Assembly: GCF_017498525.1 (NCBI RefSeq)
Contig: NZ_CP071796.1
Span: 4,098,041 to 4,162,040 of the forward strand
DNA from: Ottowia testudinis
Lineage (GTDB): Bacteria > Pseudomonadota > Gammaproteobacteria > Burkholderiales > Burkholderiaceae_C
DNA: 64,000 nt
Direction of reading: 5' to 3'
The stretch's first letter is position 1. Each line of letters starts with the position of its first letter. The translations under genes were made by a program, and so were the position numbers. The notes under the pieces are model-generated. The model saw nothing but the letters and a program-made list of their open reading frames with translations. It did no database searches and was not told the DNA's origin. Below, in pieces: positions 223 to 52,170 of the stretch.

Positions 223-275
223 TTACTATCAATAAATGAGCTGCTCGCGCTTGCCAGATAAGCGCTGGAGCCCAA
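223..275. repeat. Family A palindromic repeat (AT-rich flank + AGCTGCTCGCGCTTG-n-AAGCGCTGGAGC)
   Basis: Inverted repeat GCGCTTG/CAAGCGC flanked by AGCTGCT/AGCAGCT-like arms. Matches at least 16 other copies in the window. Confidence 0.7.
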
Positions 276-294
276 TTTCACCTGAATACCAAAG

Positions 295-403
295 ATCAGA
301 AGGCCGCGGAGCAGGCCATCCGGGAACGCCGTGGCCGGGGTTCCCCCGGCCACGAGCGTTGTCCCCTGGGGGAAGGCGCGTCAGCGCCACAGGGGGGGCG
401 TCA
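295..403 (+). repeat. Family B multi-hairpin repeat, copy B1 (about 110 bp)
   Basis: GAAGGCCGCGGAGCAGGCC...CCGTGGCCGGGGTTCCCCCGGCCACG...GTCCCCTGGGGGAAGGCGCGTCAGCGCCACAGGGGG has three perfect hairpins. It is near-identical to copies at 41873-41980 (same strand), 18649-18760 and 20432-20535 (reverse complement). Confidence 0.8.
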
Positions 404-1108
404 CTCCTGGTTTTTGGCGAACACATAGCCCACGCCCCGCACCGTCAGGATGCGCTTGGGATTTTTCAAGTCGGCCTCGATGGCGGCGCGGATGCGGCCC
501 ATGTGCACGTCGATCGAGCGGTCGAACGCCTCCAGCTCTCGGCCGCGCACGGCTTCCATGATCTGGTCGCGCGTCAGCACGCGGCCAGCGCGCTCGGCCA
601 GCGTCACCAGCAGGTCGAACTGGTAGCTGGTCAGTTCGGCCGGCTGGCCGCCCACGGTGACGGTGCGCGCGTCGCGGTCGATCTCAAGCTGGCCAAAGCG
701 CAACACCTTGTGCTCGGGCGCGGCACCAGGCTGGTGGCGGCGCAGCACGGCGCGGATGCGCGCCAGCAGCTCGCGCGGCTCGAACGGCTTGGGCAGGTAG
801 TCGTCGGCGCCCAGCTCCAGGCCGACGATGCGGTCCATCGGGTCGCCCTTGGCGGTGAGCATCAGCACCGGCACGCGCCCCGCGTCGCCCGGCAGCGCGC
901 GGATGCGGCGGCACACTTCCAGGCCGTCGATGTCGGGCAGCATCAGGTCGAGCACCACCAGGTCGACGGGCTTGTCTTGCAACGCGGCCAGGCCCGACGC
1001 GCCATCAAGCATGTGCGTGACGGCAAACCCCGACTGCGTGAGGTACTCGCCCACCATGGCCGCCAGGCGGGCGTCGTCTTCGATCATCAACAGGTGGTGG
1101 GTGCTCAT
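401..1108 (-). CDS. OmpR/PhoB-family two-component response regulator
   Basis: Receiver domain (LMIEDDARL...VLDLMLPDIDGLEV...KGD) plus winged-helix C-terminus (LTSYQFDLLVTLAERAGRVLTRDQIMEAV...GVGYVF). Shine-Dalgarno AAGAGGAG sits before the ATG. The long upstream ORF extension in the six-frame track is spurious. Confidence 0.9.
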   Translation of the reverse strand: MSTHHLLMIEDDARLAAMVGEYLTQSGFAVTHMLDGASGLAALQDKPVDLVVLDLMLPDIDGLEVCRRIRALPGDAGRVPVLMLTAKGDPMDRIVGLELGADDYLPKPFEPRELLARIRAVLRRHQPGAAPEHKVLRFGQLEIDRDARTVTVGGQPAELTSYQFDLLVTLAERAGRVLTRDQIMEAVRGRELEAFDRSIDVHMGRIRAAIEADLKNPKRILTVRGVGYVFAKNQE

Positions 1109-1215
1109 GCGCTCCTCTTTCGATCCCCGGGCAACAGGCCATGATGTCCATGACCCGCTGGGCCCGCTTGAACCGGGGGTAAAGATAAGTAAACCGCGCC
1201 GCGCTGGCGGCGCAG

Positions 1216-1268
1216 TTACTACACTAATAATAGCTGCTCGCGCTTGACTGACAAGCGCTACAGCCATT
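1216..1268. repeat. Family A palindromic repeat
   Basis: TAATAATAGCTGCTCGCGCTTGACTGACAAGCGCTACAGCC between the response regulator start and the ampG stop. Confidence 0.7.
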
Positions 1269-1269
1269 T

Positions 1270-2622
1270 TTAACCAGATGGCTTGCGCTGTACCCGCATC
1301 GCCAGCGCCACCAGCACCAGCACCGGCAGCCCCAGCAGCGCCGTGCTGGTGAAGAAGCCCGCGTAGCCAAACGCATTGACGTAGTCGCCCGAAAAACCGG
1401 CGATGAACTTGGGCAGCATCAGCATCAGCGACGAGAACAGCGCGTACTGCGTGGCCGAATAGCTGATGTTGGTCAGGCTGCTCAAATAGCCCACGAACGC
1501 CGCCGACGCTATGCCGCTGGCCAGGTTGTCGGCCGACACCACGGCAATCAGCGCCGGCACGCTGTGGCCATGGCCGGCCAGCCAGGCGAACAGCAGGTTG
1601 GTCAGCGCGCTCAGGGCCGCGCCCAGCATCAGGATGCGCATCACGCCAAAGCGCAGCGCCAGCGCGCCGCCCACGAAGGCGCCGGCCAGCGTCATGATGA
1701 CGCCGTAGACCTTGGTCACCGCCGCCACTTCGTCCTTGGTGTAGCCCATGTCCACATAGAACGGGTTGGCCATGATGCCCATCACGACGTCGCTGATGCG
1801 GTACACCGCGATCAGCGCCAGGATCAGCGCCGCCTGCCACTTGTAGCGTTTGAAAAAATCGGCGAACGGCTCGATGAGCGCCGAGCGCACCCATTCGCCC
1901 GCGTTGCGCGCAGGCGGTATCGGGCGCGGCGCCGGCTCGGGCGACAGCAGCACCGTCAGCACGCCCAGCGCCATGCTGGCGGCCATCACCAGGTACGCCG
2001 CCTGCCAGGCCGCGTGGTCGTAACCCGCCGCGCCGCCCTGCGCGCGCGCGGCCAGCCACAGCACGCCGGCACCGGCCCAGATCATGGCCAGCCGGTAGCC
2101 GGTCTGGTAGCTGGCGGCCAACGCGGGCTGCTGCTCGGTCGGCGCGGATTCGATGCGGTAGGCGTCCAGCGCGATGTCCTGCGTGGCCGAGGCAAAGGCC
2201 ACCGCCAGCGCGCACCACACCACGGCGGTGAGCGACGCACGCGGGTCGGCCCACGCCATGCCCACCAGCCCCGCCGCCACGCCCAGCTGCGCCAGCAGCA
2301 GCCAGCTGCGCCTGCGCCCAAGCCAGGGCGTGAGCAGCGGAATCGGCACGCGGTCGACCAGCGGCGCCCAAACCCACTTGAAGCCATACGCCAGACCGAC
2401 CCAGCTCAAATAGCCGATGGTGCTGCGGTCGATGCCCGCCTCGCGCAATCGAAACGAGAGCGTGCCCAGCACCAGCAGCAAGGGCAAGCCCGCCGAAAAG
2501 CCCAGCGCCAGCATGCGCAGGCTGGCCGGCTGCAGGTAGACCTTGAGGCTGTCCAGCCACGACGGCTGGCGCGCCGGCACGTCAGCGGCGGGGCCGGGCG
2601 CGTTGTCAGACAAGGACTGCAC
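1270..2622 (-). CDS. ampG: AmpG-type MFS permease (muropeptide / beta-lactamase induction signal transducer family)
   Basis: About 12 transmembrane-like hydrophobic stretches. The N-terminal region WLDSLKVYLQPASLRMLALGFSAGLPLLLVLGTLSFRLREAGIDRSTIGYLSWVGLAYGFKWVWAPLVDR looks like AmpG/PAT-family proteins. Confidence 0.75.
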   Translation of the reverse strand: MQSLSDNAPGPAADVPARQPSWLDSLKVYLQPASLRMLALGFSAGLPLLLVLGTLSFRLREAGIDRSTIGYLSWVGLAYGFKWVWAPLVDRVPIPLLTPWLGRRRSWLLLAQLGVAAGLVGMAWADPRASLTAVVWCALAVAFASATQDIALDAYRIESAPTEQQPALAASYQTGYRLAMIWAGAGVLWLAARAQGGAAGYDHAAWQAAYLVMAASMALGVLTVLLSPEPAPRPIPPARNAGEWVRSALIEPFADFFKRYKWQAALILALIAVYRISDVVMGIMANPFYVDMGYTKDEVAAVTKVYGVIMTLAGAFVGGALALRFGVMRILMLGAALSALTNLLFAWLAGHGHSVPALIAVVSADNLASGIASAAFVGYLSSLTNISYSATQYALFSSLMLMLPKFIAGFSGDYVNAFGYAGFFTSTALLGLPVLVLVALAMRVQRKPSG

Positions 2623-2704
2623 CGGTTTGCGCCCCCGCAGCGCTGGCAGCGCACCGGCGCCGGGGTATCTTGTGGCATTTCATCCGCCCTATTATTCACC
2701 CCCC

Positions 2705-4998: not shown

Positions 4999-5021
4999 CG
5001 AACGGCGTCCGGCCTCTACTG

Positions 5022-5072
5022 TTTTGATAGCTGCTTGCGCACGTCAGTTGGGCGCCAGTGACTGATTTGGTT
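5022..5072. repeat. Family A repeat, divergent subtype (ATAGCTGCTTGCGCACGTCAGTTGGGCGCC)
   Basis: Shares ATAGCTGCT-GCGC and AGTTGGGCGC with the copy at 51966-52006. Confidence 0.5.
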
Positions 5073-5182
5073 CGAAAATTCGTGGGGCCAACGCGCTACC
5101 TCATTTGTGCTTGCGCCCGTCATGGAGTCCATGCAAAAGTTACAACCCTTGCAACCACCACTTGAGATGAGAGGAGCACATC

Positions 5183-9010: not shown

Positions 9011-9084
9011 AGAATTTTTTCTAAAAAAACAGCCTGTAGCGCTTGTCCATCAAGCGCGAGCAGCTGCAATAAATATAGCAATCA
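9011..9084. repeat. Family A repeat with AT-rich arms (..CAGCCTGTAGCGCTTGTCCATCAAGCGCGAGCAGCTGCAATAAATATAGCAATCA)
   Basis: The right arm AGCTnnAwAAATAwTAGCAAyCA also occurs at 14170-14195 and 24449-24472. Confidence 0.75.
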
Positions 9085-9762
9085 CCACCGCGCCGGCAAT
9101 GTCTTGAGCAACACCAGCCGGCGCTCCCGTTGCGCGACGTAGCCACCATGCTCCAGGTCTTTCAGCAGCCGGCTGACCATCTCGCGCGAGCAGGCCAGGT
9201 GGTGGGCGATTTGCTGGTGGGTCAGGCGTTCGCGCAGCGGGCGCGCGCCATTGGCATCGGGCGGATCGGCCAGTTGGTCGAGCAGCCGGGTAAGGCGCCC
9301 GTAGACATCAACCAGCGCCATGCTGCGCGCGTTTTCTGTCGCCATGCGGGCGCGGCGGATCAGGCGCGCCATCAGCTCCAGCGCGAAGGCGGGCTGCTCG
9401 GCGATGTAGGCCAGCAGGTCGTCGCGCTGGATCAGGGCGCAGACGGTGGGCTCGACCGCTTCGACGCTGGCCGAGCGCGGGCCGCCGTCGAGCGACATTT
9501 CGCCCACGTACTCGCCGGGGCCGTACAGGCCGAGTGTCAGCTCCTTGCCGCCCGCGTCGGCGACGAAGGCGCGCAGACGCCCCGAGCGGACGATGTAGAG
9601 CGTGTCGCCCCGCTCGCCATCCTGGATGATGAGGGTGCCGCGCCGATAGCGGCGTTCGGCCCCGCGGCCGGCCAGCGCCTCGACGTGGGCGGACACGGCG
9701 GACAACGGCGGCAAGGTGGCGCCTTGGGTGGGGGAGCGCAGGCCGTCATCGGCGGGGGGCAT
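9082..9762 (-). CDS. Crp/Fnr-family transcriptional regulator (cNMP-binding + helix-turn-helix)
   Basis: cNMP-binding beta-roll (IIQDGERGDTLYIVRSGRLRAFV...GPGEYVGEMSL) and C-terminal helix-turn-helix (LTHQQIAHHLACSREMVSRLLKDLE). Confidence 0.85.
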   Translation of the reverse strand: MPPADDGLRSPTQGATLPPLSAVSAHVEALAGRGAERRYRRGTLIIQDGERGDTLYIVRSGRLRAFVADAGGKELTLGLYGPGEYVGEMSLDGGPRSASVEAVEPTVCALIQRDDLLAYIAEQPAFALELMARLIRRARMATENARSMALVDVYGRLTRLLDQLADPPDANGARPLRERLTHQQIAHHLACSREMVSRLLKDLEHGGYVAQRERRLVLLKTLPARW

Positions 9763-11759: not shown

Positions 11760-11940
11760 GACGACTCCTTGGGGCGCACCGCGGCGGGTGCCAAGGGCAG
11801 CCAGCCTATCACCGTGCCACGGCAGGCCGATGACGGCGCGGCGCGGGCGCCGACCATGGCGGCCCAGAAGCATTATCATGATTCAAATGCCGCGCGAGCC
11901 TCGTTGAATTCAGCGCCTGCAGCTATCAAATTTGAATCAT

Positions 11941-12735
11941 TCAGATGCTGAAGTCGTAGTCCACCGTGATCGGCGCGTGGTCGCTGAACTTCTGGTCCTT
12001 GTAGATCGCGGTGTGGCGCGCCAGCGCGGCGATGGCGGGCGTGGCCAGGTGGTAGTCGAGCCGCCAGCCGACGTTCTTGGCGTAGGCCTGGCCGCGGTTG
12101 CTCCACCAGGTGTAGGCCTCGCCGGTGGCCTCGGGGTGCAGGCGGCGGTACACGTCCACCAGCTCCAGCTCGTCGATCACGCGGGTGACCCAGGCGCGCT
12201 CTTCGGGCAGAAAGCCGCTGTTCTTCTGGTTGCTCTTCCAGTTCTTCAGGTCGATCTCTTGGTGCGCCACGTTCACGTCGCCGCACAGCACGAAGTCGCG
12301 CTCGGCCTTCAGGCGGTGCAGTACGGGGTAGAACTCGGCCAGAAAGCGGTACTTGGCCTCTTGCCGCTCGGGGCCGGACGAGCCGCTGGGAAAGTAGCAG
12401 CTGATGACGGAAAACTTCCGCTGGGGCGTGTCAAAGCGCGCTTCAAGGTAGCGCCCCTCCTCGTCGAACTCGGGTGAGCCGTAGCCCGCGATCACCTCGC
12501 TGGGCTCGTGCCGCGTGTAGATGCCCACACCCGAATAGCCCTTCTTCGCCGTCGCCAGGTGAAAATGCCCGCGCATGCCGGCCAGAATCTCGAAGCGGCC
12601 TTCGATGTCGGCATGCTGGGCCTTGATTTCCTGCACGCAAATACAATCCGGCGCGTGCTGCTCCAGCCACGTTTCCACGCCCTTGGTGGCGGCTGAGCGG
12701 ATGCCGTTCAGGTTCAGGCTGGTCAGTTTGAACAA
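11941..12735 (-). CDS. xth: Exodeoxyribonuclease III (Xth)
   Basis: FKLTSLNLNGIRS...DCICVQEIK...VNVAHQEIDLKN...SDHAPITVDY. There is no in-frame ATG near the conserved N-terminus, so a TTG start (complement 12733-12735) after AAGGAA is proposed. Confidence 0.8.
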   Translation of the reverse strand: MFKLTSLNLNGIRSAATKGVETWLEQHAPDCICVQEIKAQHADIEGRFEILAGMRGHFHLATAKKGYSGVGIYTRHEPSEVIAGYGSPEFDEEGRYLEARFDTPQRKFSVISCYFPSGSSGPERQEAKYRFLAEFYPVLHRLKAERDFVLCGDVNVAHQEIDLKNWKSNQKNSGFLPEERAWVTRVIDELELVDVYRRLHPEATGEAYTWWSNRGQAYAKNVGWRLDYHLATPAIAALARHTAIYKDQKFSDHAPITVDYDFSI

Positions 12736-13434: not shown

Positions 13435-14126
13435 GTGACATGAACCGCCTGCTGCCCCGTTTTGCCATAGCCCCTTCAGCGAGCGCTGTGCGCGGGCTGA
13501 CGGCCGCATGCGTGCTGGCGGTCAGCGGCGGCGCGGCGCTGGCGCAAAGCATCTACACCTGTGTGGACGCCCAGGGCCGGCGCCTGACATCCGACCGCCC
13601 GATCATGGCGTGCATCGACCGCGAGCAGCGTGAACTCAACAGCAGCGGCACCACGCGCCGGGTGATTCAGCCCACGATGACCGCCGCCGAGCGCGAGGCG
13701 CGCGACGCCCGCGAGCGCGATGCGGCAATAGAGCGCCAACGCGCGCAGAACATGGTCCGGCGCGACCAGGCGCTGGCCACGCGCTACCCCGACAAAGCCG
13801 CGCACGACGCTGGCCGCAAGGAAGCACTGGCGCAAACGCAAAGCGTGGTCGACGCCGCCAATGCCCGCATCGCCGAGCTGCTGGCCGAACGCAAAACCTT
13901 GGACGAAGAGATGGAGTTCTACAAAAAGGACCGCTCGAAAGCGCCCGCCAAGCTGCGCCGCGGCATCGAGGACAACGCGCAGGCCGTGGAAGCGCAGCAA
14001 CGCGCCATCGCCGGCCAGCAGGACGAGCGCAATCGCATCAACGCCCGCTTCGACGAGGAAGCCGCGCGCTTGAAACCCCTGTGGCAGGCCAAGGCGGCCG
14101 ACGCCGCGACCGCCGTCAAGCGCTGA
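13431..14126 (+). CDS. DUF4124-like secreted protein with charged coiled-coil C-terminus
   Basis: Signal-like N-terminus, then SIYTCVDAQGRRLTSDRPI (DUF4124-type motif), then an Arg/Glu/Ala-rich helical region. An alternative start is at 13440. Confidence 0.6.
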   Translation: MSDMNRLLPRFAIAPSASAVRGLTAACVLAVSGGAALAQSIYTCVDAQGRRLTSDRPIMACIDREQRELNSSGTTRRVIQPTMTAAEREARDARERDAAIERQRAQNMVRRDQALATRYPDKAAHDAGRKEALAQTQSVVDAANARIAELLAERKTLDEEMEFYKKDRSKAPAKLRRGIEDNAQAVEAQQRAIAGQQDERNRINARFDEEAARLKPLWQAKAADAATAVKR

Positions 14127-14192
14127 TTTTTCAACAAAATCAGCTGCCAGCGCTTATCAGGCAAGCGCAGGAAGCTCATAAAAATATAGCAA

Positions 14193-14195
<3 letters not shown>
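14124..14195. repeat. Family A repeat with AT hairpin flank (GATTTTTCAACAAAATC + AGCTGCCAGCGCTTATCAGGCAAGCGCAGGAAGCT + CATAAAAATATAGCAATCA)
   Basis: It overlaps the stop codons of both convergent genes: the DUF4124 TGA and the gatB TGA. Confidence 0.75.
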
Positions 14196-15644
<1,449 letters not shown>

Positions 15645-33123: not shown

Positions 33124-33320
33124 ACAGCCTGAACTTCCGGACGCAGAGGACGCAGAGGTTTCGCAGAGGACGCAGAAGGAACAGCCAAAAAGGATTTTTT
33201 AGCTCTCAAATTCATAGCGCACTACGCGGATTGCACGTGGACAAGCGGCGGATTTCGCCTTGTTTTTGAATTTTTTGCGTCCTCTGCGTCATCTTTGCGT
33301 CCTTGGCATGAGGCTGTTTG
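33124..33320. repeat. Family C MITE-like element, copy C1: terminal inverted repeats of tandem GACGCAGAGG units around an AT-rich core
   Basis: Left arm AACAGCCTGAACTTCCGGACGCAGAGGACGCAGAGG...; right arm is its reverse complement ...GCGTCCTCTGCGTCATCTTTGCGTCCTTGGCATGAGGCTGTTTGG. Inside the operon, between the NfeD-like and flotillin genes. Confidence 0.7.
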
Positions 33321-33975: not shown

Positions 33976-34007
33976 GGTTCTGGTTCCCTCTCGATGAATG
34001 ATGATGC

Positions 34008-34102
34008 TTTTATTTTTATAGCTGCTGGCGCTTTCCAGTCTTCGTTTTCAAATCATTTTCCTCTGAAACTGGCTCCCGACAAGCGCAAGCAGCTATGTTT
34101 TT
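34008..34102. repeat. Family A repeat with enlarged loop (ATAGCTGCTGGCGCTTTCCAGTC ...45 bp... GACAAGCGCAAGCAGCTATG)
   Basis: The two arms match the family A half-sites but are separated by an AT-rich 45-bp insert. The right arm overlaps the stop of the 34093-34449 ORF. Confidence 0.55.
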
Positions 34103-34449
34103 TGCTTCAGCTTGCCGCGCCGGGGCGCCTGGGCAAAGCCGATCAACTCGCGCGTGGCCGCTTCCTTGATGGCCAGGCGGTCGTCCGCGGGCAGCCCATA
34201 ACGGTTCGCCAGCACATCGTAATCATCGCCGCTCAAGGTGACCGTGAGGCGCGGGCGCTTGGGCCGCTCGGCCGCCACGGGCAGGCCGAGCAGCAGGCGG
34301 ATCTGCGTGGAGGTGGACACGTTGGCTTCGAACGCGGCCACGCGCACCGCCTCCATCACCGCCTCTTCCACGTCGAACGCCACCTGCACGGCGCGCAGCG
34401 CGCTGTCCGAGCCCTGCCAGCGCGCCGGCTTGGCGGGCAAGGGGCTCAT
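34093..34449 (-). CDS. Hypothetical protein (118 aa), translationally coupled to the upstream PspA-family gene
   Basis: Its ATG overlaps the stop of the 34446-35180 gene (ATGA). No recognised domain. Confidence 0.5.
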   Translation of the reverse strand: MSPLPAKPARWQGSDSALRAVQVAFDVEEAVMEAVRVAAFEANVSTSTQIRLLLGLPVAAERPKRPRLTVTLSGDDYDVLANRYGLPADDRLAIKEAATRELIGFAQAPRRGKLKQKT

Positions 34450-38976: not shown

Positions 38977-39016
38977 TGAATAGCTATTTATTTAATAGCT
39001 GTTTGCGCTTGATTGG
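38977..39016. repeat. Family A-like AT/GC palindrome (AATAGCTATTTATTTAATAGCTGTTTGCGCTTGATTGG), overlapping the 3' end of the periplasmic adaptor gene
   Basis: It encodes the last residues (..ANQAQTAIK*) of the 38988-40142 product and reaches the RND start region. Confidence 0.5.
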
Positions 39017-40142
39017 CGGGCGCAGCAGGCGCTTTTGGCACTGAATCGGCCACCACCTGCACCAGATCGCCGTCGTTCAGGAAGGCGCCGCCCTGCACCA
39101 CCACGCGGGCGCCCGCGTCCAGCCCGCCCGTGATTTCAACCCGCCCGCCGGCCAGCCGCCCGGTCTGCACGCGCAGCAGCTGCACGCGGTCGCCCTCGCC
39201 CAGCTTCAGCACGTGGGCAAAGCCGTCGCGCATGACGATGGCGTCTTGCGGCACCGTCAGCGCCTCGCCCTGGCCGATGGCGATGCGCCCGCGCGCGAAC
39301 ATGCCGGCGCGCGCCGGGCCGCCGCGCGGCAGGTCAACGTAGACGATGGCAAAGCGCGTCTTCGGGTCCACCGTGGGCGCCAGCTGGCGCACGGTGCCGG
39401 TGAGCGGCGGCGCGGCGGCATCGGGCGCGCCGGGCAAGTCGATCCGCACCGCCTGGCCGGCTCGGATGGCGGGCAGGTCTTCAGCCATCACCTCGCCGCG
39501 CCATTCCAGCCGGCCCTGGCGCACCATGCGGAACAGCTCGGTGCCGGGCGCCACCACCTGGCCCACGGTGGCCATGCGGGCGGAAATGACGCCGGCATCG
39601 GGCGCCAGCACCTGCGTGTTGCGCACGCGCAGCGCCTGGCTGCCGACCACGGCGCGCGCCGCCTCGACCCGGGCGCGGGCGGTTTTCTCGGCCGTCACAT
39701 ATTGGTTGATCTGCTGCTGGCTCAAAGCGCCGCTGGATTGCACGGCGCGCGCGCGTTCGGCGTTGCCGCGCGCATCGGCGTGGGCGGCTTCGGCCTCGGC
39801 CAGGCTGGCGCGCGCCTGCGCCTGGTCTTGCTGCACGGGCGCGGCGTCGAAGGTGGCCAGCACCTGGCCTTTTCTCACCACGTCGCCCACGTTCACGCGC
39901 ACATCGGCCAGCCGCAGGCCGCCCACGTCGGCGCCCACGCTGGCCTCTTGCCAGGCGGCGATGTTGCCATTGGCGGTGATTTCGCGCGTCAGGTTCTGGC
40001 GCTCAGGGTGCGCCACGGTCACGGTGAGCGCGGGGCGCGGCGCGCTGGCGGCCGCTTGCGGGCCATTGGCGGCGCCGTCTTTCTGGCCGCAGGCGGCAAG
40101 CGCCAGGGCGGCGGCCAAAAGCATGGTGGGGATGGATTTCAT
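38988..40142 (-). CDS. RND efflux periplasmic adaptor subunit (MFP/HlyD family) lipoprotein
   Basis: Lipobox LALAAC. Biotinyl-lipoyl-like and beta-barrel regions. Confidence 0.9.
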   Translation of the reverse strand: MKSIPTMLLAAALALAACGQKDGAANGPQAAASAPRPALTVTVAHPERQNLTREITANGNIAAWQEASVGADVGGLRLADVRVNVGDVVRKGQVLATFDAAPVQQDQAQARASLAEAEAAHADARGNAERARAVQSSGALSQQQINQYVTAEKTARARVEAARAVVGSQALRVRNTQVLAPDAGVISARMATVGQVVAPGTELFRMVRQGRLEWRGEVMAEDLPAIRAGQAVRIDLPGAPDAAAPPLTGTVRQLAPTVDPKTRFAIVYVDLPRGGPARAGMFARGRIAIGQGEALTVPQDAIVMRDGFAHVLKLGEGDRVQLLRVQTGRLAGGRVEITGGLDAGARVVVQGGAFLNDGDLVQVVADSVPKAPAAPANQAQTAIK

Positions 40143-40200: not shown

Positions 40201-41634
40201 TCATGGCGCCGGCGCCTGCCAGCCGCCGCCCGCCGCCTTGTACAGTGCCACGCCCGCGGCCTGCTGCTCGTGCAGCAGCTGCGCCAGCGCGGTCTCGGCG
40301 CCCAGCAGATTGCGGCGCGCTTCTTCCAGCTGCGGCAGGTTGGCCATGCCCTGGCGGTACAGCGCCTCGGTGGCGGCGAACTGCTGGCGGTAGCCGGCCA
40401 CGGCGGCGCGGGCGTCGGCCTCGCGCCCGCGCGCGGCGGCGCCTTGCGTGAGGGCGGTTTCCACCTCTTGCACGGCCTGGCGCACCTTGCCCTGGTAGTT
40501 GGCCACGGCTTCGTCGTAGCGCGCCCGCGCCGCCGCCTGGCCCGCCGCGATGCGGCCGCCGTCGAAGATCGGCAGGCTGAGTTGCAGCGGCCCGAACTGC
40601 CAGGTGGAAAAGTCGCGCGTGCCGCCGCCGGCGCGCAGTTGCAGCGCGCCGATGTTGCCGGCCAGGCTCAAGCCCGGCCAGCGCGCGGCATCGGCCGACG
40701 CCAGCTCGGCCCGCGCGGCCAGCACCTCGCGCTCGGCGGCCCACACGTCGGGGCGCTGGCGCAGGGTGTCGGCGGGCAGAGTTGCTATTGAAAATAGAGC
40801 TGATTGCGATGAATTGGCGCGGGCAAGCGCCATTTTTTGCTCGATATCCGGCTCGGGCAGCCCGGTCAACGCCACCAGCGCCTTGCGCTGCGCATCGCAC
40901 GTGGCCTGCTGCTGCGTGGTGCGCGCGCGGCCGTCGGCGGCGCTGGCGTCGGCCAGTGCGGCGGTGGCGGGCGCGGTGAAGCCGGCGTCGCGGCTGATGC
41001 GCGCCAGGCGCGCGGTCTCGCCGCGCGAAGCGGCGTCTTGGCGCGCGGTCTCCAGCAGCGACTGGCACAGCCGCAGGCCGTGGTAGCTGCTGGCCACGTC
41101 GCCCACCAGCGCCACGCGCGCCAGGTGCGCCAGCGCCTGGGCGCCCTCGGCGCGCGCCGTGGCGGCGCCGACCAGCGCGCGCTGGCGGCCGAACAGATCA
41201 ATTTCCCAGCTCGCCTGCACGCCGGCTTGCAGCGTGGTGGCGATCGGCGGATCGCTGCCCGGCGGCGTGCTGCCCACGCTGCCCGCGTTGCCGCGCGTGG
41301 CGCTGGCGGCGGCGCCCAGCTGCGGCAGCAGGCCGGCGCGCTGGCTGCCCACCTGCGCGCGCGCCTGCGCCACGCGCGCTTCGGCCGCGGCCAGGCTCGG
41401 GCTGCCTTGCAAGGCGGCGTCGATCAATTCGGTGAGCGTGGCGTCGCCGCCCGCGCGCCACCAGCCGGCCAGCGCAACGGCGCTGCCGGCATGCGGCAGC
41501 GGGGCGATCCAGGCGGGCGGCGCGATGTGTTCCAGCGGCGGCGCGGCGGGCGGCGGCGTGGCGCAGCCGGCCAAGGCGAGCAGCGTCGCGGCGCCGAACA
41601 GCGCGCGGCAGCGGAGAGCAAAAAACGATCTCAT
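40201..41634 (-). CDS. Efflux outer-membrane factor lipoprotein (OprM/NodT family)
   Basis: Lipobox LLALAGC. Two TolC-like repeats. Gene order OMF-MFP-RND. Confidence 0.9.
   Translation of the reverse strand: MRSFFALRCRALFGAATLLALAGCATPPPAAPPLEHIAPPAWIAPLPHAGSAVALAGWWRAGGDATLTELIDAALQGSPSLAAAEARVAQARAQVGSQRAGLLPQLGAAASATRGNAGSVGSTPPGSDPPIATTLQAGVQASWEIDLFGRQRALVGAATARAEGAQALAHLARVALVGDVASSYHGLRLCQSLLETARQDAASRGETARLARISRDAGFTAPATAALADASAADGRARTTQQQATCDAQRKALVALTGLPEPDIEQKMALARANSSQSALFSIATLPADTLRQRPDVWAAEREVLAARAELASADAARWPGLSLAGNIGALQLRAGGGTRDFSTWQFGPLQLSLPIFDGGRIAAGQAAARARYDEAVANYQGKVRQAVQEVETALTQGAAARGREADARAAVAGYRQQFAATEALYRQGMANLPQLEEARRNLLGAETALAQLLHEQQAAGVALYKAAGGGWQAPAP
40786..40840. 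repeat. Possible intragenic, in-frame family A-like copy inside the OMF gene
   Basis: A low-GC patch GGCGCTTGCCCGCGCCAATTCATCGCAATCAGCTCTATTTTCAATAGCAAC encodes ..MALARANSSQSALFSIAT.. in frame. It resembles GCGCTTG-n-CAAGCGC...ATAGCAATCA. Confidence 0.35.
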
Positions 41635-41780
41635 GCGATGCTTCAAAAACCTGGGTGCGCGCGAATGTTGCATTGCACCACAGCTGCATGGCATCACTGC
41701 GAGAACCCGCACTGTGCTTATGGTGCCAAGGCGTCGCCACAGGCCAAGCCGCGACGAACCGAAAAATACAAGGATTTAAG

Positions 41781-41828
41781 GCCCTTGTCCACGTCAGGCA
41801 AGCGCAAGCAGCTATCGAAAACGAAGTG
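41781..41828. repeat. Family A repeat (GGCCCTTGTCCACGTCAGGCAAGCGCAAGCAGCTATCGAAAACGAAGTG)
   Basis: Same right-arm subtype as the 30106 and 30874 copies. Confidence 0.65.
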
Positions 41829-41872
41829 CCGGACAAAATGGCGGCGGCACCAGCCAATGCCTTCTCAGCGTG

Positions 41873-43176: not shown

Positions 43177-44475
43177 ATGTCCCAGCTTGCCATGCGCCCC
43201 CCGATGGCGCCCCGTCTTCTTCCCCTTGGCGCGGCACTGCTGCTGGCCGCGTCGCTGGCGGCCTGCGGCGACAAGAAACCCGCCGGCGCGCCGCCCGGCC
43301 CCGGCGGGGGCATGCCGCCGCCCGAGGTGGCGGTGCTCACCGTGCAGCCCGGCACCGTCAATCTGACGACCGAGCTGCCCGGCCGGCTGGAGCCGTCGCG
43401 CGTGGCGCAGGTGCGCGCGCGTGCCACCGGCATCCTGAACAAGCGCGTGTTCACCGAAGGCAGCGACGTGCGCGCCGGGCAGGTGCTGTACCAGATCGAC
43501 TCTGCCCCCTACCAGGCCACGCAACAAAGCGCGCAGGCGCAGCTGGCGCAGGCGCAGGCGCAGCTGGCCAACGCCAGCGCCATGGTCACGCGCTACCGCC
43601 CGCTGGTGGCCGCCAACGCGGTGAGCAAGCAGGAGTTCGACGCCGCCGTGGCCGCCGAGAAAGCCGCGCAGGCGCAGGTGGCCGCCGGCCGCGCCGCCGT
43701 GCGCACGGCCAGCATCAGCCTGGGCTACGCCACGGTGACGGCGCCGATCGCCGGGCGCATCGGCCGATCGCTGGTGACCGAGGGCGCCTTGGTCAGCGCG
43801 CAAGAGGGCACGCAGCTGGCCACCATTCAGCAGATCAACCCGCTGTACCTCAACATCACCCAATCCGCGGCCGAGGTGCTGAAGCTGCGCGAGGCGCTGC
43901 AAGCCGGCCAGCTGGCGCGCGCCGGCGGCGGCGAGGCGGCCAAGGTGCAGGTGCTGCTCGAAAACGGCCAGGTCTACGGCCAGCCGGCGCGCCTGCTGTT
44001 CACCGACTTGAGCGTTGACCCGGCCACCGGCCAGGTCAGCCTGCGCGCCGAGGTGCCCAACCCCGGCGGCCTGCTGATGCCCGGCATGTACGTGCGCGCC
44101 CGCGTCGAGCAGGCCGAGGTGAGCAACGCCATCCTGCTGCCGCAGCAGGCGGTGACGCGCGGCACCAAGGGCGACAGCGTGATGGTGGTGGCGCCCGATG
44201 GCGCCGTGGCGCCGCGCCCCATCAAGATTGGCGGGCAGCGCGGCAACCAGTGGATCGTGACGGAGGGTCTGAAGCCCGGCGAGCAGGTGATGGTGGAAGG
44301 CGCCATGAAGCTGATGATGGGCGCCAAGGTGGTGAAAGCTGTACCTTGGGAACCAAACAAGGCCTCAGCGCCCGCCAATCAAGCGTCAGCAGCTCCTAAA
44401 AACGGAGCGTCCAGCGCGGCACCGGCAGCACCTGCCAGCGCACCCGCTGCCCCCGCCTCGGCGGCCTCGCGCTGA
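43177..44475 (+). CDS. RND efflux periplasmic adaptor (AcrA/MexA-like) lipoprotein
   Basis: Lipobox LAACGD. Ala-rich C-terminal tail. Confidence 0.9.
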   Translation: MSQLAMRPPMAPRLLPLGAALLLAASLAACGDKKPAGAPPGPGGGMPPPEVAVLTVQPGTVNLTTELPGRLEPSRVAQVRARATGILNKRVFTEGSDVRAGQVLYQIDSAPYQATQQSAQAQLAQAQAQLANASAMVTRYRPLVAANAVSKQEFDAAVAAEKAAQAQVAAGRAAVRTASISLGYATVTAPIAGRIGRSLVTEGALVSAQEGTQLATIQQINPLYLNITQSAAEVLKLREALQAGQLARAGGGEAAKVQVLLENGQVYGQPARLLFTDLSVDPATGQVSLRAEVPNPGGLLMPGMYVRARVEQAEVSNAILLPQQAVTRGTKGDSVMVVAPDGAVAPRPIKIGGQRGNQWIVTEGLKPGEQVMVEGAMKLMMGAKVVKAVPWEPNKASAPANQASAAPKNGASSAAPAAPASAPAAPASAASR

Positions 44476-50287: not shown

Positions 50288-50319
50288 GAAAAAAGCCGCT
50301 GCATCAGCGGCTTTTTTTC
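50288..50319. terminator. Rho-independent terminator (GCCGCTG-CAT-CAGCGGC + TTTTTTT), with an A-tract on the other side, so likely bidirectional
   Basis: Seen directly, 19 bp after the cytochrome c stop. Confidence 0.75.
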
Positions 50320-50326
50320 CATGCTC

Positions 50327-50386
50327 AAATCGGCCGCCAGCGCTTGACCATCAAGCGTGAGCAGCTATGAAATCATGAGTAATTGA
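50327..50386. repeat. Family A repeat (CCAGCGCTTGACCATCAAGCGTGAGCAGCTATGAAATCATGAG)
   Basis: Adjacent to the terminator. Confidence 0.7.
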
Positions 50387-50946: not shown

Positions 50947-50953
50947 CGGGCCA

Positions 50954-51958
50954 TTATGGGCCGCGCCCCGCTTGCGCCAGCAGCCAGCCACCTACGGCGC
51001 GCGGCAGCCAGAACACGTGGCCCGGCGGCAGCGCGCCTTCGGCAAAGCCGACGTGCCCGCCCTCGCGCGGCTGCCACAGCGTGACGTAGCGCCCCACCTC
51101 GCCCGCGCGCGGCAGCGACGCGGCGGGCACGAAGGGATCGTTCAGCGCATTCAGCGCCAGCGCCGGCACGCGGATGCCGGGCAGCAGCGGTTTGGCCGAG
51201 GCGCGCCGGTAGTAGTCAGCCACTCCCGCGAAGCCGTGCAGCGGCGCGGTGAACAGGTCGTCGAAGGCGATCAAATCGCGCGCCGCGCGCAGGCGCCGCG
51301 GGTCGAACAGGCCGGGGTGCTGCGCCAGCTTGGCCGCCGCCTTGGCCTTCATGGTGCGCAAGAACATGCGGGTATAGACCTGCCGGTTGAAGCCGTGGCC
51401 GATGGCGCTGGCGCCGGCCGCCAGATCGAGCGGCGCGCACACCGACGCCACGGCGCTGACGCTGCGTGCCGCCGCGCCGCCTGCCTCGCCAGCCCAGCGC
51501 AGCAGCGCATTGCCGCCCAGCGACACGCCAACCGCCAGCAGCGGCTGGCCGCGCGTGGCGGGCTCGGCATCGAGCCGGGCGCGCAGGCGGCCCAGCAGCC
51601 AACCGATCTCGGCCACGTCGCCCGAGTGGTAGGCGCGCGGCGCGTGGTTGATCTCGCCCGAGCAGCCGCGAAAGTGCGGCACCGCCAAACCAAGACCGCG
51701 CGCCCGCGCCCAGCCAGCGAAGGCTTCGGCATAGTGGCTGCGCGAGGAGCCTTCGAGGCCGTGGAACAACACCACGAACGGCGCCGCGCACGGCGGTTGG
51801 GCCAGAAAGTCGACGTCGACGAAGTCGCCATCGGGCGTGGCCCAGCGCTCGCGCCGGTAAGCCACGCGCCCGCCCACGACGCGTCGCGCGCGCAGCGCCG
51901 GCCACAAGGTCTGCAGCTGGCCGCCGGGCAGCCAGGCGGGGGCGCGGTAGATGGTCAC
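50954..51958 (-). CDS. YheT-type alpha/beta hydrolase
   Basis: VLFHGLEGSS...GVSLGGN nucleophile elbow; layout typical of the YheT/ABHD family. Confidence 0.8.
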   Translation of the reverse strand: MTIYRAPAWLPGGQLQTLWPALRARRVVGGRVAYRRERWATPDGDFVDVDFLAQPPCAAPFVVLFHGLEGSSRSHYAEAFAGWARARGLGLAVPHFRGCSGEINHAPRAYHSGDVAEIGWLLGRLRARLDAEPATRGQPLLAVGVSLGGNALLRWAGEAGGAAARSVSAVASVCAPLDLAAGASAIGHGFNRQVYTRMFLRTMKAKAAAKLAQHPGLFDPRRLRAARDLIAFDDLFTAPLHGFAGVADYYRRASAKPLLPGIRVPALALNALNDPFVPAASLPRAGEVGRYVTLWQPREGGHVGFAEGALPPGHVFWLPRAVGGWLLAQAGRGP

Positions 51959-51965
51959 TTCAAAA

Positions 51966-52006
51966 TCTATAGCTGCTCGCGCAAGTTGGGCGCGCGAAAG
52001 CGCCGT
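51966..52006. repeat. Family A repeat, divergent subtype (TATAGCTGCTCGCGCAAGTTGGGCGCGCGAAAGCGCC)
   Basis: Left flank of C4. Confidence 0.55.
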
Positions 52007-52023
52007 TTTTCATGCTGAACCCA

Positions 52024-52130
52024 AAACCTTTGAACGCAAAGTGCGCAGAGATTTCGCAAAAGCCGCAGAAGTTTTTTCTGGTTTTCTTTTGCGTCTTTTG
52101 CGTGATCTTTGCGACCTTTGCGTTCAAGAA
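52024..52130. repeat. Family C element, copy C4 (arms built from ACGCAAAG / CGCAGA units)
   Basis: TTTGAACGCAAAGTGCGCAGAGATTTCGCAAAAGCCGCAGAAG ... CTTTTGCGTCTTTTGCGTGATCTTTGCGACCTTTGCGTTCAAG; the arms are inverted repeats. Confidence 0.6.
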
Positions 52131-52135
52131 ACATC

Positions 52136-52170
52136 AAAAATCATAGCTGCTCGCGCTTGATTGACGTGGA
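52136..52170. repeat. Family A half-site (AAAAATCATAGCTGCTCGCGCTTGATTGACG), in direct orientation to 51966-52006
   Basis: Right flank of C4. Confidence 0.55.

What the first reader, a model, noticed from the sequence alone, without database searches (positions are those of the whole stretch)
223..52170. Family A: an abundant 35-40 bp GC palindrome with AT-rich arms (REP/RPE-like), at least 17 copies in 64 kb
The core is AGCTGCTCGCGCTTG-n(5-8)-CAAGCGCGAGCAGCT: two inverted half-sites GCGCTTG/CAAGCGC inside AGCTGCT/AGCAGCT.

Copies lie at about 223, 1216, 5022, 9011, 14124, 20608, 22669 (degenerate), 24417, 30106, 30874, 34008 (split by a 45-bp loop), 38977, 41781, 50327, 51966 and 52136.

Several carry a conserved AT-rich right arm AGCTnnAwAAATAwTAGCAAyCA (9011, 14124, 24417) or AT-rich hairpin flanks (14124: GATTTTTCAACAAAATC; 20608: ATTGAAAAT...). 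There are sub-families (ATAGCTGCT-GCGCAxGT-AGTTGGGCGC at 5022 and 51966).

Copies sit almost exclusively at gene boundaries. They often overlap stop codons: the TGA of both the DUF4124 gene and gatB lie inside one copy. This density is far above what I would expect for typical REP elements.
Basis: seen in the sequence. Interest (0 to 1): 0.6.

Follow-up and report, generated by a model that had tools for sequence, protein, structure and literature searches.

The report
Comamonadaceae-wide REP-like intergenic repeat
The window (Ottowia testudinis) is peppered with a real, oriented ~67-base hairpin repeat that occurs across the bacterial family Comamonadaceae, behaves like the REP class of small mobile intergenic repeats, appears undescribed, and has one copy inside a globally spread antibiotic-resistance integron cassette.

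Summary
An HMM built from the copies finds 21-23 copies in 64 kb. The exact core occurs 5 times against 0.06 expected by chance.

The unit is larger and more asymmetric than described. It is an oriented ~67-nt element: RCT, 9 nt, (A/G)TAG, CTGCTNGCGCTTG, 5-nt loop, YAAGCGCTAGAGGC, ATTT, AAA.

Every named one is Comamonadaceae, from 11 genera, all with almost the same consensus.

Across ~210 copies:
- 43% of convergent, 19% of tandem and 6% of divergent intergenic regions carry one.
- The median distance to the upstream stop codon is 9 nt.
- Both orientations occur, and about 10% lie inside ORFs, some translated in frame.
- Copies are conserved in position between Ottowia species, yet present or absent between closer relatives.
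- Pairing reflects sequence conservation, not covariation.

The best reading is a REP-type non-autonomous element whose single-stranded hairpin is handled by an unidentified enzyme. The conserved CT, the xTAG tag and top-strand G·T wobbles match the architecture of substrates of RAYT (the REP-associated tyrosine transposase). No RAYT was found, and none could be looked for properly.

It is a new variant of a known kind. One copy sits in the class 1 integron cassette orfF/gcuF, in 1,745 plasmids.

The parts
219..291 (+). Family A copy. Intergenic, between two minus-strand genes (upstream of the response-regulator stop); antisense to transcription.
   Evidence: nhmmer E=1.9e-15. The ORF my caller drew through it is an artefact of start-codon choice.
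1209..1279 (+). Family A copy. Overlaps the stop codon of the MFS transporter gene (1270-2622, minus) by 9 nt.
   Evidence: nhmmer E=5.3e-16; context; Pfam.
5008..5081 (+). Family A copy of the sub-family GCGCAnGT...GGGCGC, 16 nt after the stop of a methyltransferase gene.
   Evidence: nhmmer E=1.2e-13.
9012..9087 (-). Family A copy, 2 nt after the stop of the Crp-family gene. Conserved in position in Ottowia sp. SB7-C50.
   Evidence: nhmmer E=2.3e-15; L121 16079-16155.
11873..11947 (-). Conserved in position in L121.
   Evidence: nhmmer E=3.5e-10.
14119..14199 (-). Family A copy that fills the 66-nt gap between the convergent DUF4124 gene and gatB. Both stop codons touch its ends. An orthologous copy is present in three Ottowia species.
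   Evidence: nhmmer E=4.9e-15; alignment A1; Pfam DUF4124; GatB identity.
20609..20686 (-). Family A copy between mreD and the PBP2 gene, inside an operon and antisense to transcription. Carries a GTAG tag. Orthologous copy in three Ottowia species.
   Evidence: nhmmer E=3.2e-14; alignment A2.
24408..24474 (-). Family A copy between the convergent catalase and DUF3686 genes. Abuts a GTAG-tagged inverted REP doublet at 24339-24407.
   Evidence: nhmmer E=4.3e-15.
26706..26780 (+). Intragenic Family A copy, antisense and translated in frame (FFESNPAFVHEWLAQPAIESVA) in a variable linker of the 1869-aa DUF3686 protein. Present at the same place in four relatives (L127, L129, L130, weakly L126) and absent in L125.
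   Evidence: nhmmer E=2.4e-08.
30084..30162 (-). Family A copy ending at the start codon of the DUF3686 gene. Conserved in L128, L129 and L130; absent in L125, L126 and L127. Abuts the GTAG doublet at 30167-30233.
   Evidence: nhmmer E=1e-14.
30851..30927 (-). Family A copy between the flotillin gene and the Zn-ribbon gene. In relatives L129-L131 these two genes overlap by 4 nt, with no spacer and no copy. This is the only copy in the first 40 kb that also fits the simple terminator pattern.
   Evidence: nhmmer E=2.1e-17.
33201..33259 (+). Weak, possibly decayed Family A remnant.
   Evidence: nhmmer E=0.0043; not counted among the copies.
34000..34111 (.). Two Family A left halves facing each other (34000-34077 plus, 34037-34111 minus) across about 45 nt. 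The TAG of the tag is the stop codon of the 118-aa gene. Absent at this junction in L125 and L126.
   Evidence: nhmmer E=3.7e-08 and 5.8e-09; alignment A4.
38978..39053 (+). Family A copy of the GGGCGC sub-family. It supplies the last ~20 codons (…APAAPANQAQTAIK*) and the stop codon of membrane-fusion gene 38988-40142.
   Evidence: nhmmer E=1.4e-15.
40778..40854 (+). Intragenic Family A copy, antisense and translated in frame, in the variable linker between the two halves of the outer-membrane efflux protein (40201-41646).
   Evidence: nhmmer E=1.4e-12; blastp against the window's paralogue; Pfam OEP.
41768..41829 (-). Family A copy of the sub-family with TGACGTGGAC in place of the right stem half, upstream of the efflux operon and near a tRNA gene.
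   Evidence: nhmmer E=1.7e-11.
44338..44416 (-). Family A copy of the GGGCGC sub-family, translated within the C-terminal tail (…SAPANQASAAPK…) of membrane-fusion gene 43177-44475.
   Evidence: nhmmer E=8.7e-12.
50310..50385 (-). Family A copy between the convergent cytochrome c and DUF2946 genes.
   Evidence: nhmmer E=5.2e-15.
51949..52027 (+). Family A copy of the sub-family GCGCAAGT…GGGCGC. First of two direct copies in one 262-nt spacer.
   Evidence: nhmmer E=2.6e-14.
52124..52199 (+). Family A copy of the TGACGTGGAC sub-family, 29 nt after the stop of the SnoaL-like gene.
   Evidence: nhmmer E=5e-16.
53469..53543 (-). It fills most of the 97-nt spacer after the LemA gene.
   Evidence: nhmmer E=5.1e-11.
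63373..63448 (+). Family A-like sequence inside the class IV aminotransferase ORF, sense orientation, encoding …IALDLIAAYARSTGAAGQK…. Whether it is an insertion was not tested against orthologues.
   Evidence: nhmmer E=5.5e-12.

Best explanation
Family A is a REP-type small interspersed element specific to the family Comamonadaceae.

Anatomy. It is an oriented ~67-nt unit made of:
- a near-invariant RCT;
- a 9-nt A/T-rich spacer;
- the tag (A/G)TAG at the foot of a 14-bp G+C-rich hairpin (CTGCTNGCGCTTG, 5-nt loop, YAAGCGCTAGAGGC);
- an A/T-rich tail (ATTT…AAA).

Shown here: it is abundant, discrete, non-coding in origin, limited to one bacterial family, inserted in both orientations, and made of sub-families. 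It is gained or lost between close relatives yet retained for long periods at some sites. It is tolerated almost only where it does not disrupt promoters or proteins: just after stop codons, between convergent genes, in variable protein linkers and in C-terminal tails.

Inferred: it spreads, or spread, as non-autonomous DNA. Its top strand, folded as a single-stranded hairpin, would be recognised sequence-specifically by a conserved, vertically inherited host-encoded enzyme. The most likely candidate is a HUH/Y1 enzyme of the RAYT (TnpA-REP) type, with xTAG acting as guide and the upstream CT as cleavage site.

Probable but unshown: side effects on mRNA, such as 3' hairpins, altered C-termini and donated stop codons. 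These would be secondary.
For: The family is real and discrete.

Limited to one bacterial family, with nearly the same consensus in 11 genera.

Location. Occupancy is 50 of 115 convergent, 114 of 613 tandem and 6 of 102 divergent intergenic regions. The median distance is 9 nt to the upstream stop and 24 nt to the next start. In the window, 14 of 31 spacers of at least 50 nt are occupied: 3 of 3 convergent and 0 of 5 divergent.

Signs of copying rather than site-by-site selection:
- Both orientations occur (70 sense, 44 antisense).
- Sub-families exist, including variants seen only in this window.
- Pairing is no better than in column shuffles (81.7% against 81.5%), so the stem is conserved as sequence, not by covariation.

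Turnover. The closest relative with long flanks (L125, flotillin 95% identical) lacks the copies at three junctions. L129-L131 have the flotillin and Zn-ribbon genes overlapping where the window has a 145-nt spacer holding a copy. Other copies are orthologous across Ottowia species whose GatB is about 91% identical.

Copies in unusual places:
- In-frame intragenic copies.
- Copies in IMG/VR viral contigs with G+C as low as 0.49-0.57.
- A copy in an enterobacterial integron cassette.

Fit to RAYT substrates. Published biochemistry shows that the single-stranded REP top strand is recognised, that a tetranucleotide GTAG 5' of the hairpin acts as guide, and that cleavage occurs at a CT chosen by complementarity to the A3G4 of the tag (PMC8266576). 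In Family A:
- A and G of the tag are invariant, and the first base of the tag is A in 172 copies and G in 24.
- A CT sits 9 nt upstream, at 87% (C) and 90% (T) of all 207 copies; counting only copies with a base in those columns it is C 180/188 and T 185/191.
- The consensus stem has three top-strand G·T wobbles, which would be A·C mismatches on the other strand.
Against: No transposase of any kind was found:
- tblastn with E. coli RayT against ~1.2 Mb of Comamonadaceae and viral loci gave nothing.
- Genes bracketed by copies are ordinary housekeeping genes.
- The window has no HUH or transposase gene among those scanned.
- The 2010 RAYT survey reported that the RAYT of Thauera, the betaproteobacterium it examined, had no counterpart in other betaproteobacteria (PMC2817692).

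Departures from canonical REPs: the tag is ATAG rather than GTAG in 83% of copies, and copies are mostly singletons rather than inverted doublets or BIME arrays.

No target-site duplication or clean empty site could be defined.

Canonical GTAG-tagged inverted doublets of a different sequence also exist in the window. They could be the true RAYT partners, leaving Family A without one.

No strand bias is seen within the window (10 plus, 12 minus).

Some orthologous copies keep the stem through double changes (Obeij GCGCCCG/CGGGCGC; L128). That hints at selection on structure.
Confidence: 0.55

Rival explanations
1. The element is a host cis-acting RNA element. It forms a 3'-end hairpin that stabilises upstream mRNA, insulates convergent genes or weakly terminates transcription, and each copy is kept by selection at gene ends.
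For: - Strong enrichment at 3' ends and between convergent genes, with depletion from divergent promoter regions.
- Conservation of position across Ottowia species.
- A modest sense bias, 70 to 44, p=0.019.
- G·U-compatible wobbles on the top strand.
- Two orthologous copies with compensatory stem changes.
- Some copies fold well below shuffled controls, with z down to -4.8.
Against: - 39% of copies in tandem spacers are antisense to transcription.
- No covariation beyond column shuffles and no long-range mutual information.
- Loop-proximal bases and the unpaired A/T-rich arms are conserved as sequence across genera.
- Only 1 of about 12 copies in the first 40 kb fits a hairpin-plus-T-run terminator, and a sub-family replaces TTT with AAA.
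- The consensus folds no better than shuffles, z -1.0 and -1.6.
- Close relatives lack copies at the same junctions, or even have overlapping genes there.
- Copies occur inside ORFs.
- No Rfam family matches.
Confidence: 0.2
2. The element is a double-stranded DNA binding site. The half-sites GCGCTTG/CAAGCGC at fixed 5-bp spacing, plus A/T-rich flanks, would bind a Comamonadaceae-specific dimeric DNA-binding or nucleoid-organising protein, as BIMEs bind gyrase and IHF.
For: - Sequence-level rather than structure-level conservation of a palindrome with a fixed loop length across 11 genera.
- A very high number of sites.
- A/T-rich arms in a 68% G+C genome.
Against: - The unit is strongly asymmetric: the tag, the CT and the tail each occur on one side only.
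- The outer stem is G·T/A·C asymmetric.
- Sub-families that lose the right half-site persist.
- Location tracks gene 3' ends rather than any regular spacing.
- Half-sites do not occur on their own outside full elements.
Confidence: 0.12
3. The element is a classical MITE: an internally deleted insertion sequence moved in trans by a DDE transposase that recognises terminal inverted repeats.
For: Small size, high copy number, both orientations, in-frame intragenic copies, and presence or absence between relatives.
Against: - The two ends (ATTGCT… and …AAAAT) are not inverted repeats of each other.
- There is no conserved flanking duplication or target consensus; information content is about zero outside -16 to +51.
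- No larger element with the same ends and no transposase lies between paired copies.
Confidence: 0.05
4. Not a real feature: chance palindromes in a G+C-rich genome, or conserved coding sequence.
For: High-G+C genomes contain many GC palindromes. One unrelated palindrome, GCGCTTGCATCAAGCGC, lies in coding sequence at 25348.
Against: - Shuffle controls.
- HMM E-values down to 1e-17.
- About 90% of copies are intergenic, against about 14% non-coding DNA.
- 120 or more exact-core loci, all confined to one family.
Confidence: 0.01

Closest known systems
GTAG-tagged REP elements and their RAYT/TnpA-REP transposases (E. coli REP/BIME, Pseudomonas REPINs, Stenotrophomonas SMAG)
   Same: - A high-copy extragenic G+C-rich stem-loop with a conserved tetranucleotide at the 5' foot; xTAG with invariant A and G, and GTAG itself in 12% of copies.
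- A conserved CT nearby.
- The stem carries top-strand G·T wobbles and a mismatch.
- Location after stop codons and between convergent genes.
- Long persistence combined with turnover.
(PMC3733652)
   Different: - The tag is ATAG in 83% of copies.
- The conserved unit is about 67 nt and includes A/T-rich non-palindromic arms, not 20-40 nt.
- Copies are mostly singletons rather than inverted doublets or BIME arrays.
- The same consensus is shared by 11 genera, whereas REPs are usually specific to a species or genus.
- No RAYT has been identified.
Rickettsia palindromic elements (RPE; CGTC-tagged repeats)
   Same: A palindromic interspersed element that is also found inside protein-coding genes and translated in frame in tolerant regions.
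   Different: RPEs are 100-150 bp, carry a CGTC tag (PMC3733652) and occur in alphaproteobacteria. There is no sequence similarity. Only about 10% of Family A copies are intragenic.
Neisseria NTS/dRS3 repeats and the GIY-YIG single-strand nuclease SsnA
   Same: An oriented hairpin repeat whose conserved non-palindromic flank gives it a direction. It is recognised as a single-stranded hairpin by sequence as well as by shape (PMC11893778). This is the same logic as the sequence-level conservation seen here.
   Different: The sequence and tag differ (CGTCATTCCC…). No Ssn-like gene was seen next to Family A copies.
BRE, the betaproteobacterial repeat element of Bordetella and Comamonadaceae (Hot et al. 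2011)
   Same: A repeat of 75-91 bp in intergenic regions of some of the same genera, with some copies inside ORFs (PMC3110155).
   Different: The sequence is unrelated (TTTGCCGCGGGC…GCCCCCTCGGGGGGCAGCAAGC…), with 69% G+C. It occurs in tandem arrays, behaves as a VNTR, and has only 1-29 copies per genome. Family A is not BRE.
Correia/NEMIS, ERIC and other MITE-like repeats
   Same: Small, abundant, in both orientations, able to alter gene ends and transcripts.
   Different: Those have terminal inverted repeats and, for Correia, a TA duplication. Family A has neither.

Membership tests
REP (repetitive extragenic palindrome), descriptive class | Short imperfect G+C-rich palindrome able to form a stem-loop | tested here: met
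   A 14-bp stem with a 5-nt loop; 83% of stem cells are paired over 53 copies. Folds are shown.
REP (repetitive extragenic palindrome), descriptive class | High copy number (more than 100 per genome) and predominantly extragenic | tested here: inconclusive
   21-23 copies in 64 kb and about 90% intergenic. The genome-wide figure of about 1,400 is an extrapolation; the whole genome could not be scanned.
GTAG-tagged REP superfamily (RAYT-associated) | Conserved GTAG tetranucleotide at one end of the palindrome | tested here: inconclusive
   The tag is (A/G)TAG. First base: A 172, G 24, T 8. T is 177/204; A and G are invariant. The two positions reported as decisive for CT selection (A3G4; PMC8266576) are met. 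The canonical G1 is present in only 12% of copies.
GTAG-tagged REP superfamily (RAYT-associated) | A RAYT (Y1 HUH transposase) gene in the genome, typically flanked by the REPs | not testable with these tools
   No RayT-like ORF was found in the window, in ~1 Mb of genome loci or in 0.2 Mb of viral loci.
GTAG-tagged REP superfamily (RAYT-associated) | Organisation as inverted doublets (REPINs) or BIME arrays | tested here: not met
   Nearly all copies are singletons. The window has one facing pair (34000-34111) and one direct pair (51949 and 52124).
GTAG-tagged REP superfamily (RAYT-associated) | Conserved CT cleavage dinucleotide 5' or 3' of the hairpin, with the structure formed on one strand only | tested here: met
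   A CT lies 9 nt upstream of the tag, at 87% (C) and 90% (T) of copies. Top-strand G·T wobbles occur at three consensus stem positions. Whether cleavage actually happens is untested.
MITE | Terminal inverted repeats and a target-site duplication | tested here: not met
   The ends are not mutually complementary and the flanks carry no information.
BRE (Hot et al. 2011) | Sequence similarity to the BRE consensus and tandem arrangement | tested here: not met
   The BRE sequences in Additional file 1 are unrelated. Family A is not arranged in tandem.
Intrinsic (Rho-independent) terminator | G+C-rich hairpin followed immediately by a T-run | tested here: not met
   Only copy 30851-30927 passes the scan among about 12 copies in 1-40,000.
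Any Rfam RNA family | A match to a curated covariance model | tested here: not met
   No match at any copy, either at gathering score or at E<=5.

The most novel reading that the evidence does not exclude
Family A may be the substrate of a still-unidentified enzyme that recognises single-stranded hairpins and has been inherited vertically throughout the Comamonadaceae. The enzyme could be a divergent RAYT that reads ATAG instead of GTAG, or a new family.

That would be a REPIN/RAYT-like symbiosis conserved at the level of a bacterial family rather than a species.

Because the element is diagnostic for this family, it would also serve as a taxonomic barcode. Its presence in the orfF/gcuF cassette of the dfrA12-orfF-aadA2 class 1 integron would then show that this clinical 'gene' cassette is a piece of Comamonadaceae intergenic DNA. 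That would give a concrete donor lineage for one integron cassette.
Probability: 0.3. Interest if true: 0.7.

Novelty: new variant of a known kind. Interest (0 to 1): 0.5.

Why it matters
1. REP-type repeats are usually specific to a species or genus. Here about 67 nt of non-coding sequence, including unpaired A/T-rich arms, is held nearly constant across at least 11 genera. This implies a conserved trans-acting partner that can now be searched for. It would extend the REP/RAYT picture to the Comamonadaceae, a lineage in which I found no report of it.

2. The element fills roughly 40% of convergent-gene spacers, sits inside operons, donates stop codons and C-terminal tails, and is translated inside proteins. 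It therefore matters for gene annotation in Acidovorax, Comamonas, Ottowia and related wastewater and plant-associated bacteria. Spurious ORFs, wrong start codons and wrong ends are likely around it.

3. It is a family-specific sequence tag. Finding it inside the orfF/gcuF integron cassette, carried by about 1,700 enterobacterial plasmids, offers direct and checkable evidence about where an integron cassette came from. It also suggests that the annotated DUF1010 'protein' there is a translated repeat plus attC site.

Tried and rejected
- BRE identity. The only paper linking Comamonadaceae to a named intergenic repeat (PMC3110155) describes a different sequence.
- Rfam. Nothing at gathering score or at E<=5.
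- RAYT search. tblastn with E. coli RayT against all fetched loci and viral loci gave only noise. tblastn against PLSDB found RAYTs in other taxa but none in Comamonadaceae. Neither survey I could read lists Comamonadaceae REPs: the RAYT survey (PMC2817692) or the survey of GTAG- and CGTC-tagged repeats (PMC3733652). PMC6006769 and PMC5581495 do not mention the family either.
- Genes bracketed by copies as candidate transposases. They are QueC, hydrolases, aminotransferases and the like, plus three ORFs with no Pfam or NCBIfam hit.
- Covariation support for an RNA structure. None beyond shuffles.
- Left-arm hairpin (CTAT…ATAG). Only the CT/AG pairs are conserved; the inner pairs are unpaired in about half of the copies. 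I now read this as a possible cleavage-site and guide pairing rather than a structural hairpin.
- Promoter idea. The two promoter-like hits that overlap copies are no more than expected from shuffles, and the element is depleted from divergent regions.
- Uptake-sequence idea. Half-sites never occur outside full elements.
- Target-site duplication or exact insertion borders. Flanking spacers have diverged too far in the relatives available.
- Literature search by the sequence itself, and for gcuF/DUF1010 origin. Nothing relevant.
- The look-up of encoding contigs could not retrieve the O. testudinis genome itself, so no whole-genome count was possible.

Full report
**Source and setting**

The window is from Ottowia testudinis (Comamonadaceae, Burkholderiales). 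The GatB protein encoded at 14193-15644(-) is 100% identical to the O. testudinis protein on a 4.32-Mb contig. G+C is 63-73%.

I called genes with a codon-usage log-odds caller trained on the window. It gave 55 genes and 9.6% intergenic DNA. The genes that matter were checked with Pfam or by synteny. The region is ordinary housekeeping DNA:
- gatCAB, mreBCD-PBP2 and catalase;
- a PspA/flotillin/DUF3686 cluster;
- two RND efflux operons;
- the ATP synthase operon.

No transposase was found among the 21 window genes scanned with Pfam. The rest of the 55 were named by synteny or not scanned.

Yes. The exact core GCGCTTG-N3-12-CAAGCGC occurs 5 times against 0.06 expected. The 15-mer left half with up to 3 mismatches occurs 46 times against 10.6, and none of 100 shuffles reached that.

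When oriented and stacked, the copies are plainly one family. An nhmmer profile recovers 22 hits at E<1e-7 and one weak hit.
- The copy at 22669 is not.
- Six further copies were found: 11873, 26706, 40778, 44338, 53469 and 63373.

**What the unit looks like**

I aligned 207 copies from the window and from other genomes. Information content rises abruptly 16 nt before the T of TAGCTGCT and falls to background 51 nt after it. The unit is therefore a discrete, oriented element of about 67 nt:

a-t-t-R-C-T-(9 nt, A/T-rich)-(A/G)-T-A-G-CTGCT-N-GCGCTTG-(5-nt loop)-Y-AAGCGC-t-a-G-a-G-g-C-n-n-a-TTT-…-AAA.

- The central stem has 14 pairs. Three consensus positions are T·G or G·T on this strand, which would be A·C on the other strand.
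- The flanking arms are 70-99% A+T in a 68% G+C genome.

**Distribution**

With 21 specified bases I estimate well under one chance match in the whole collection.

Every locus that carries a genus or family name belongs to Comamonadaceae: Acidovorax, Ottowia, Giesbergeria, Comamonas, Diaphorobacter, Extensimonas, Simplicispira, Paenacidovorax, Rhodoferax, Hydrogenophaga and Ca. Aalborgicola. The rest are metagenome-assembled genomes labelled only at a higher rank. Per-genus consensus sequences are almost identical over the whole unit.

The same pattern also occurs in 22 IMG/VR viral contigs, some with only 49-57% G+C.

**Genomic context**

Across 212 non-redundant copies in ~1 Mb:

| Context | Copies | Regions of that kind | Occupancy |
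|---|---|---|---|
| Tandem spacers | 114 | 613 | 19% |
| Convergent spacers | 50 | 115 | 43% |
| Divergent spacers | 6 | 102 | 6% |
| Inside called ORFs | 21 | – | – |
| Too close to a locus end to classify | 21 | – | – |

- In tandem spacers the median distance is 9 nt to the upstream stop codon and 24 nt to the next start.
- The median convergent spacer that holds a copy is 78 nt, so the element is often the whole spacer.
- Orientation relative to transcription is mixed: 70 sense and 44 antisense (p=0.019).
- In the window, 14 of 31 spacers of at least 50 nt are occupied, including all 3 convergent and none of the 5 divergent.
- The A/T-rich arms and the TAG of the tag often supply the stop codon. 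Examples are the 118-aa gene at 34093 and membrane-fusion gene 38988-40142.

**Intragenic copies are real and translated**

- In the 1869-aa DUF3686 protein, the antisense copy encodes FFESNPAFVHEWLAQPAIESVA in a variable linker between conserved blocks. L127, L129 and L130 carry a copy at the same place, L126 a weak trace. The relative L125 has an unrelated sequence there.
- In the outer-membrane efflux protein, the copy encodes part of the variable linker between the two OEP halves.
- Two membrane-fusion proteins end in element-encoded tails that share the motif APANQA.

**Age and turnover**

Five window copies have counterparts at the same junction, in the same orientation and with shared idiosyncrasies, in other Ottowia species whose GatB is about 91% identical. 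The junctions are gatB/DUF4124, mreD/PBP2, after the Crp gene, after the exonuclease gene and after catalase. Copies can therefore persist through speciation while their sequence decays.

Closer relatives (flotillin 95-98% identical) differ by presence or absence:
- L125 lacks the copies at three junctions.
- L129-L131 have the flotillin and Zn-ribbon genes overlapping by 4 nt, where the window has a 145-nt spacer with a copy.
- L128 has a strongly divergent copy at that position.

Sub-families exist. AA→GG in the right stem occurs without a compensating change. There is a TTT↔AAA tail variant. Two variants were seen only in this window.

**Structure or sequence?**

On 53 diverse copies, 81.7% of cells pair, but column shuffles give 81.5%. 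Double changes are only marginally enriched: 20 against 14.3, reached by 25 of 500 shuffles. Mutual information is confined to neighbouring columns. The stem is therefore conserved as sequence, as expected for copies of a master element or for a protein that reads bases, and not for independently selected RNA hairpins.

The consensus folds no better than shuffled sequence. Individual copies range from z=-1.7 to -4.8. Only one of about 12 copies in the first 40 kb resembles an intrinsic terminator. Rfam has nothing.

**Mechanism**

The anatomy matches what has been shown experimentally for REP/RAYT systems (PMC8266576):
- only the single-stranded top strand is recognised;
- a tetranucleotide 5' of the hairpin (GTAG) acts as guide;
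- cleavage occurs at a CT 5' or 3' of the hairpin, and that CT is selected through complementarity with the A3G4 of the tag.

Family A has an xTAG tag with invariant A and G (GTAG itself in 12% of copies). It has a near-invariant CT exactly 9 nt upstream, at the left border of conservation. It has a weaker ACT in the tail. And its stem is better paired on one strand.

I therefore favour a RAYT-like HUH enzyme as the driver, but this is inference. No such gene was found in the sample. The sample is far too small to exclude a single-copy gene. The tag is mostly ATAG. Copies are singletons rather than REPIN doublets. The window also holds two canonical GTAG-tagged inverted doublets of other sequence, at 24339-24407 and 30167-30233, which could be the real RAYT partners.

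Alternatives are given as rivals: an RNA 3'-end element, a duplex protein-binding site, and a MITE.

**Comparison with known families**

- The literature I could search contains no description of this element by sequence or by topic.
- BRE, the one named betaproteobacterial repeat reported in Comamonadaceae, is a different sequence.
- Neither the RAYT survey (PMC2817692) nor the survey of GTAG- and CGTC-tagged repeats (PMC3733652) lists Comamonadaceae; PMC6006769 and PMC5581495 do not mention the family either.
- The closest kind is the GTAG-tagged REP superfamily. RPE is the closest for in-frame insertion. Neisseria NTS/SsnA is the closest for an oriented hairpin read as single-stranded DNA.

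I class it as a new variant of a known kind.

**A by-product worth following**

blastn of the consensus against PLSDB hit 1,745 plasmids, nearly all enterobacterial. Each of the enterobacterial records listed matched at the same ~81% identity under a CDS annotated 'DUF1010 domain-containing protein' or under no listed feature.

In pCTX-M3 this is the orfF/gcuF cassette of the class 1 integron array dfrA12-orfF-aadA2. The copy is complete: CT, tag, stem and the AAAA-type tail, with E=8.8e-13, antisense to the cassette. It is 90% identical to an Acidovorax copy, while the rest of the cassette matches nothing in my sample.

The annotated ORF translates the element (…LASSPCVASASSYRF…) and, by my reading of the sequence, runs on through the attC site. 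Pfam DUF1010 matches only this ORF, not other translations of the element.

Because the element is diagnostic for Comamonadaceae, this cassette very probably derives from Comamonadaceae DNA. I found no paper that says so.

**Verdict**

The REP-like interpretation is supported. The mechanism is plausible but unproven. Interest is moderate: higher than for a routine REP family because of the family-wide conservation and the integron link.

Noticed in passing
L132 (pCTX-M3, NC_004464.2) 3989-4055; 1,745 PLSDB plasmids: A complete Family A copy lies inside the orfF/gcuF cassette of the class 1 integron array dfrA12-orfF-aadA2. The annotated 'DUF1010 domain-containing protein' translates the element and, by my reading, the attC site. 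Because the element is otherwise confined to Comamonadaceae, it marks the likely donor lineage of this globally spread cassette.
   Followed up: partly
window 24339-24407 and 30167-30233: Two canonical GTAG-tagged REP units arranged as inverted doublets (REPIN-like): CGTAGGGTG(A/G)GTGC…GCACCCAC and CGTAGGGCGGGCA…TGCCCGC. Each lies directly beside a Family A copy. One similar unit occurs in L125. Their presence suggests that a RAYT may exist in this genome, with these as its cognate repeats.
   Followed up: partly
window ~300-340, 20440-20560, ~41860-41900: A third repeat, …GGCCGCGGAGCAGGCC(A/C)…CCGGGAACGCCGTG…, G+C-rich, next to Family A copies at 219, 20609 and 41768. It is conserved between O. 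testudinis and Ottowia sp. SB7-C50 in the mreD-PBP2 spacer. Its flavour recalls BRE, but it was not compared in detail.
   Followed up: no
window 52030-52127: A 42-nt inverted repeat (83% complementary, 14-nt loop) rich in TTTGCG/CGCAAA motifs, lying between the two direct Family A copies at 51949 and 52124.
   Followed up: no
window 30084-30162 / 30097; L128 2535-2604; L129 9172-9237: The DUF3686 gene (1869 aa) starts immediately after the A/T-rich tail of a Family A copy (…ATTTGATTGAAAATCATG) in three relatives, with no obvious Shine-Dalgarno sequence. The element may provide the translation-initiation region, or the start codon may be mis-assigned.
   Followed up: no
L125 9640-10229; L129 8463-9025; L127 12298-13756: Between the flotillin/Zn-ribbon genes and the DUF3686 gene, relatives carry different toxin-antitoxin insertions (ParE with an antitoxin; a PIN-domain gene) at the junction where the window has only Family A copies. 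This junction is a hot spot for small insertions.
   Followed up: no
L074 4164-4919 (-), L062 5042-5368 (+), L102 1818-2231 (-): Three ORFs (251, 108 and 137 aa) tightly bracketed by Family A copies have no Pfam or NCBIfam match. They may be spurious or uncharacterised and were not examined further.
   Followed up: partly
L133-L154 (IMG/VR viral contigs): Family A copies occur in 22 viral or prophage contigs, several with G+C of only 0.49-0.57, well below the 63-73% G+C of this window. I did not check whether the copies lie in phage DNA proper or in host flanks.
   Followed up: partly
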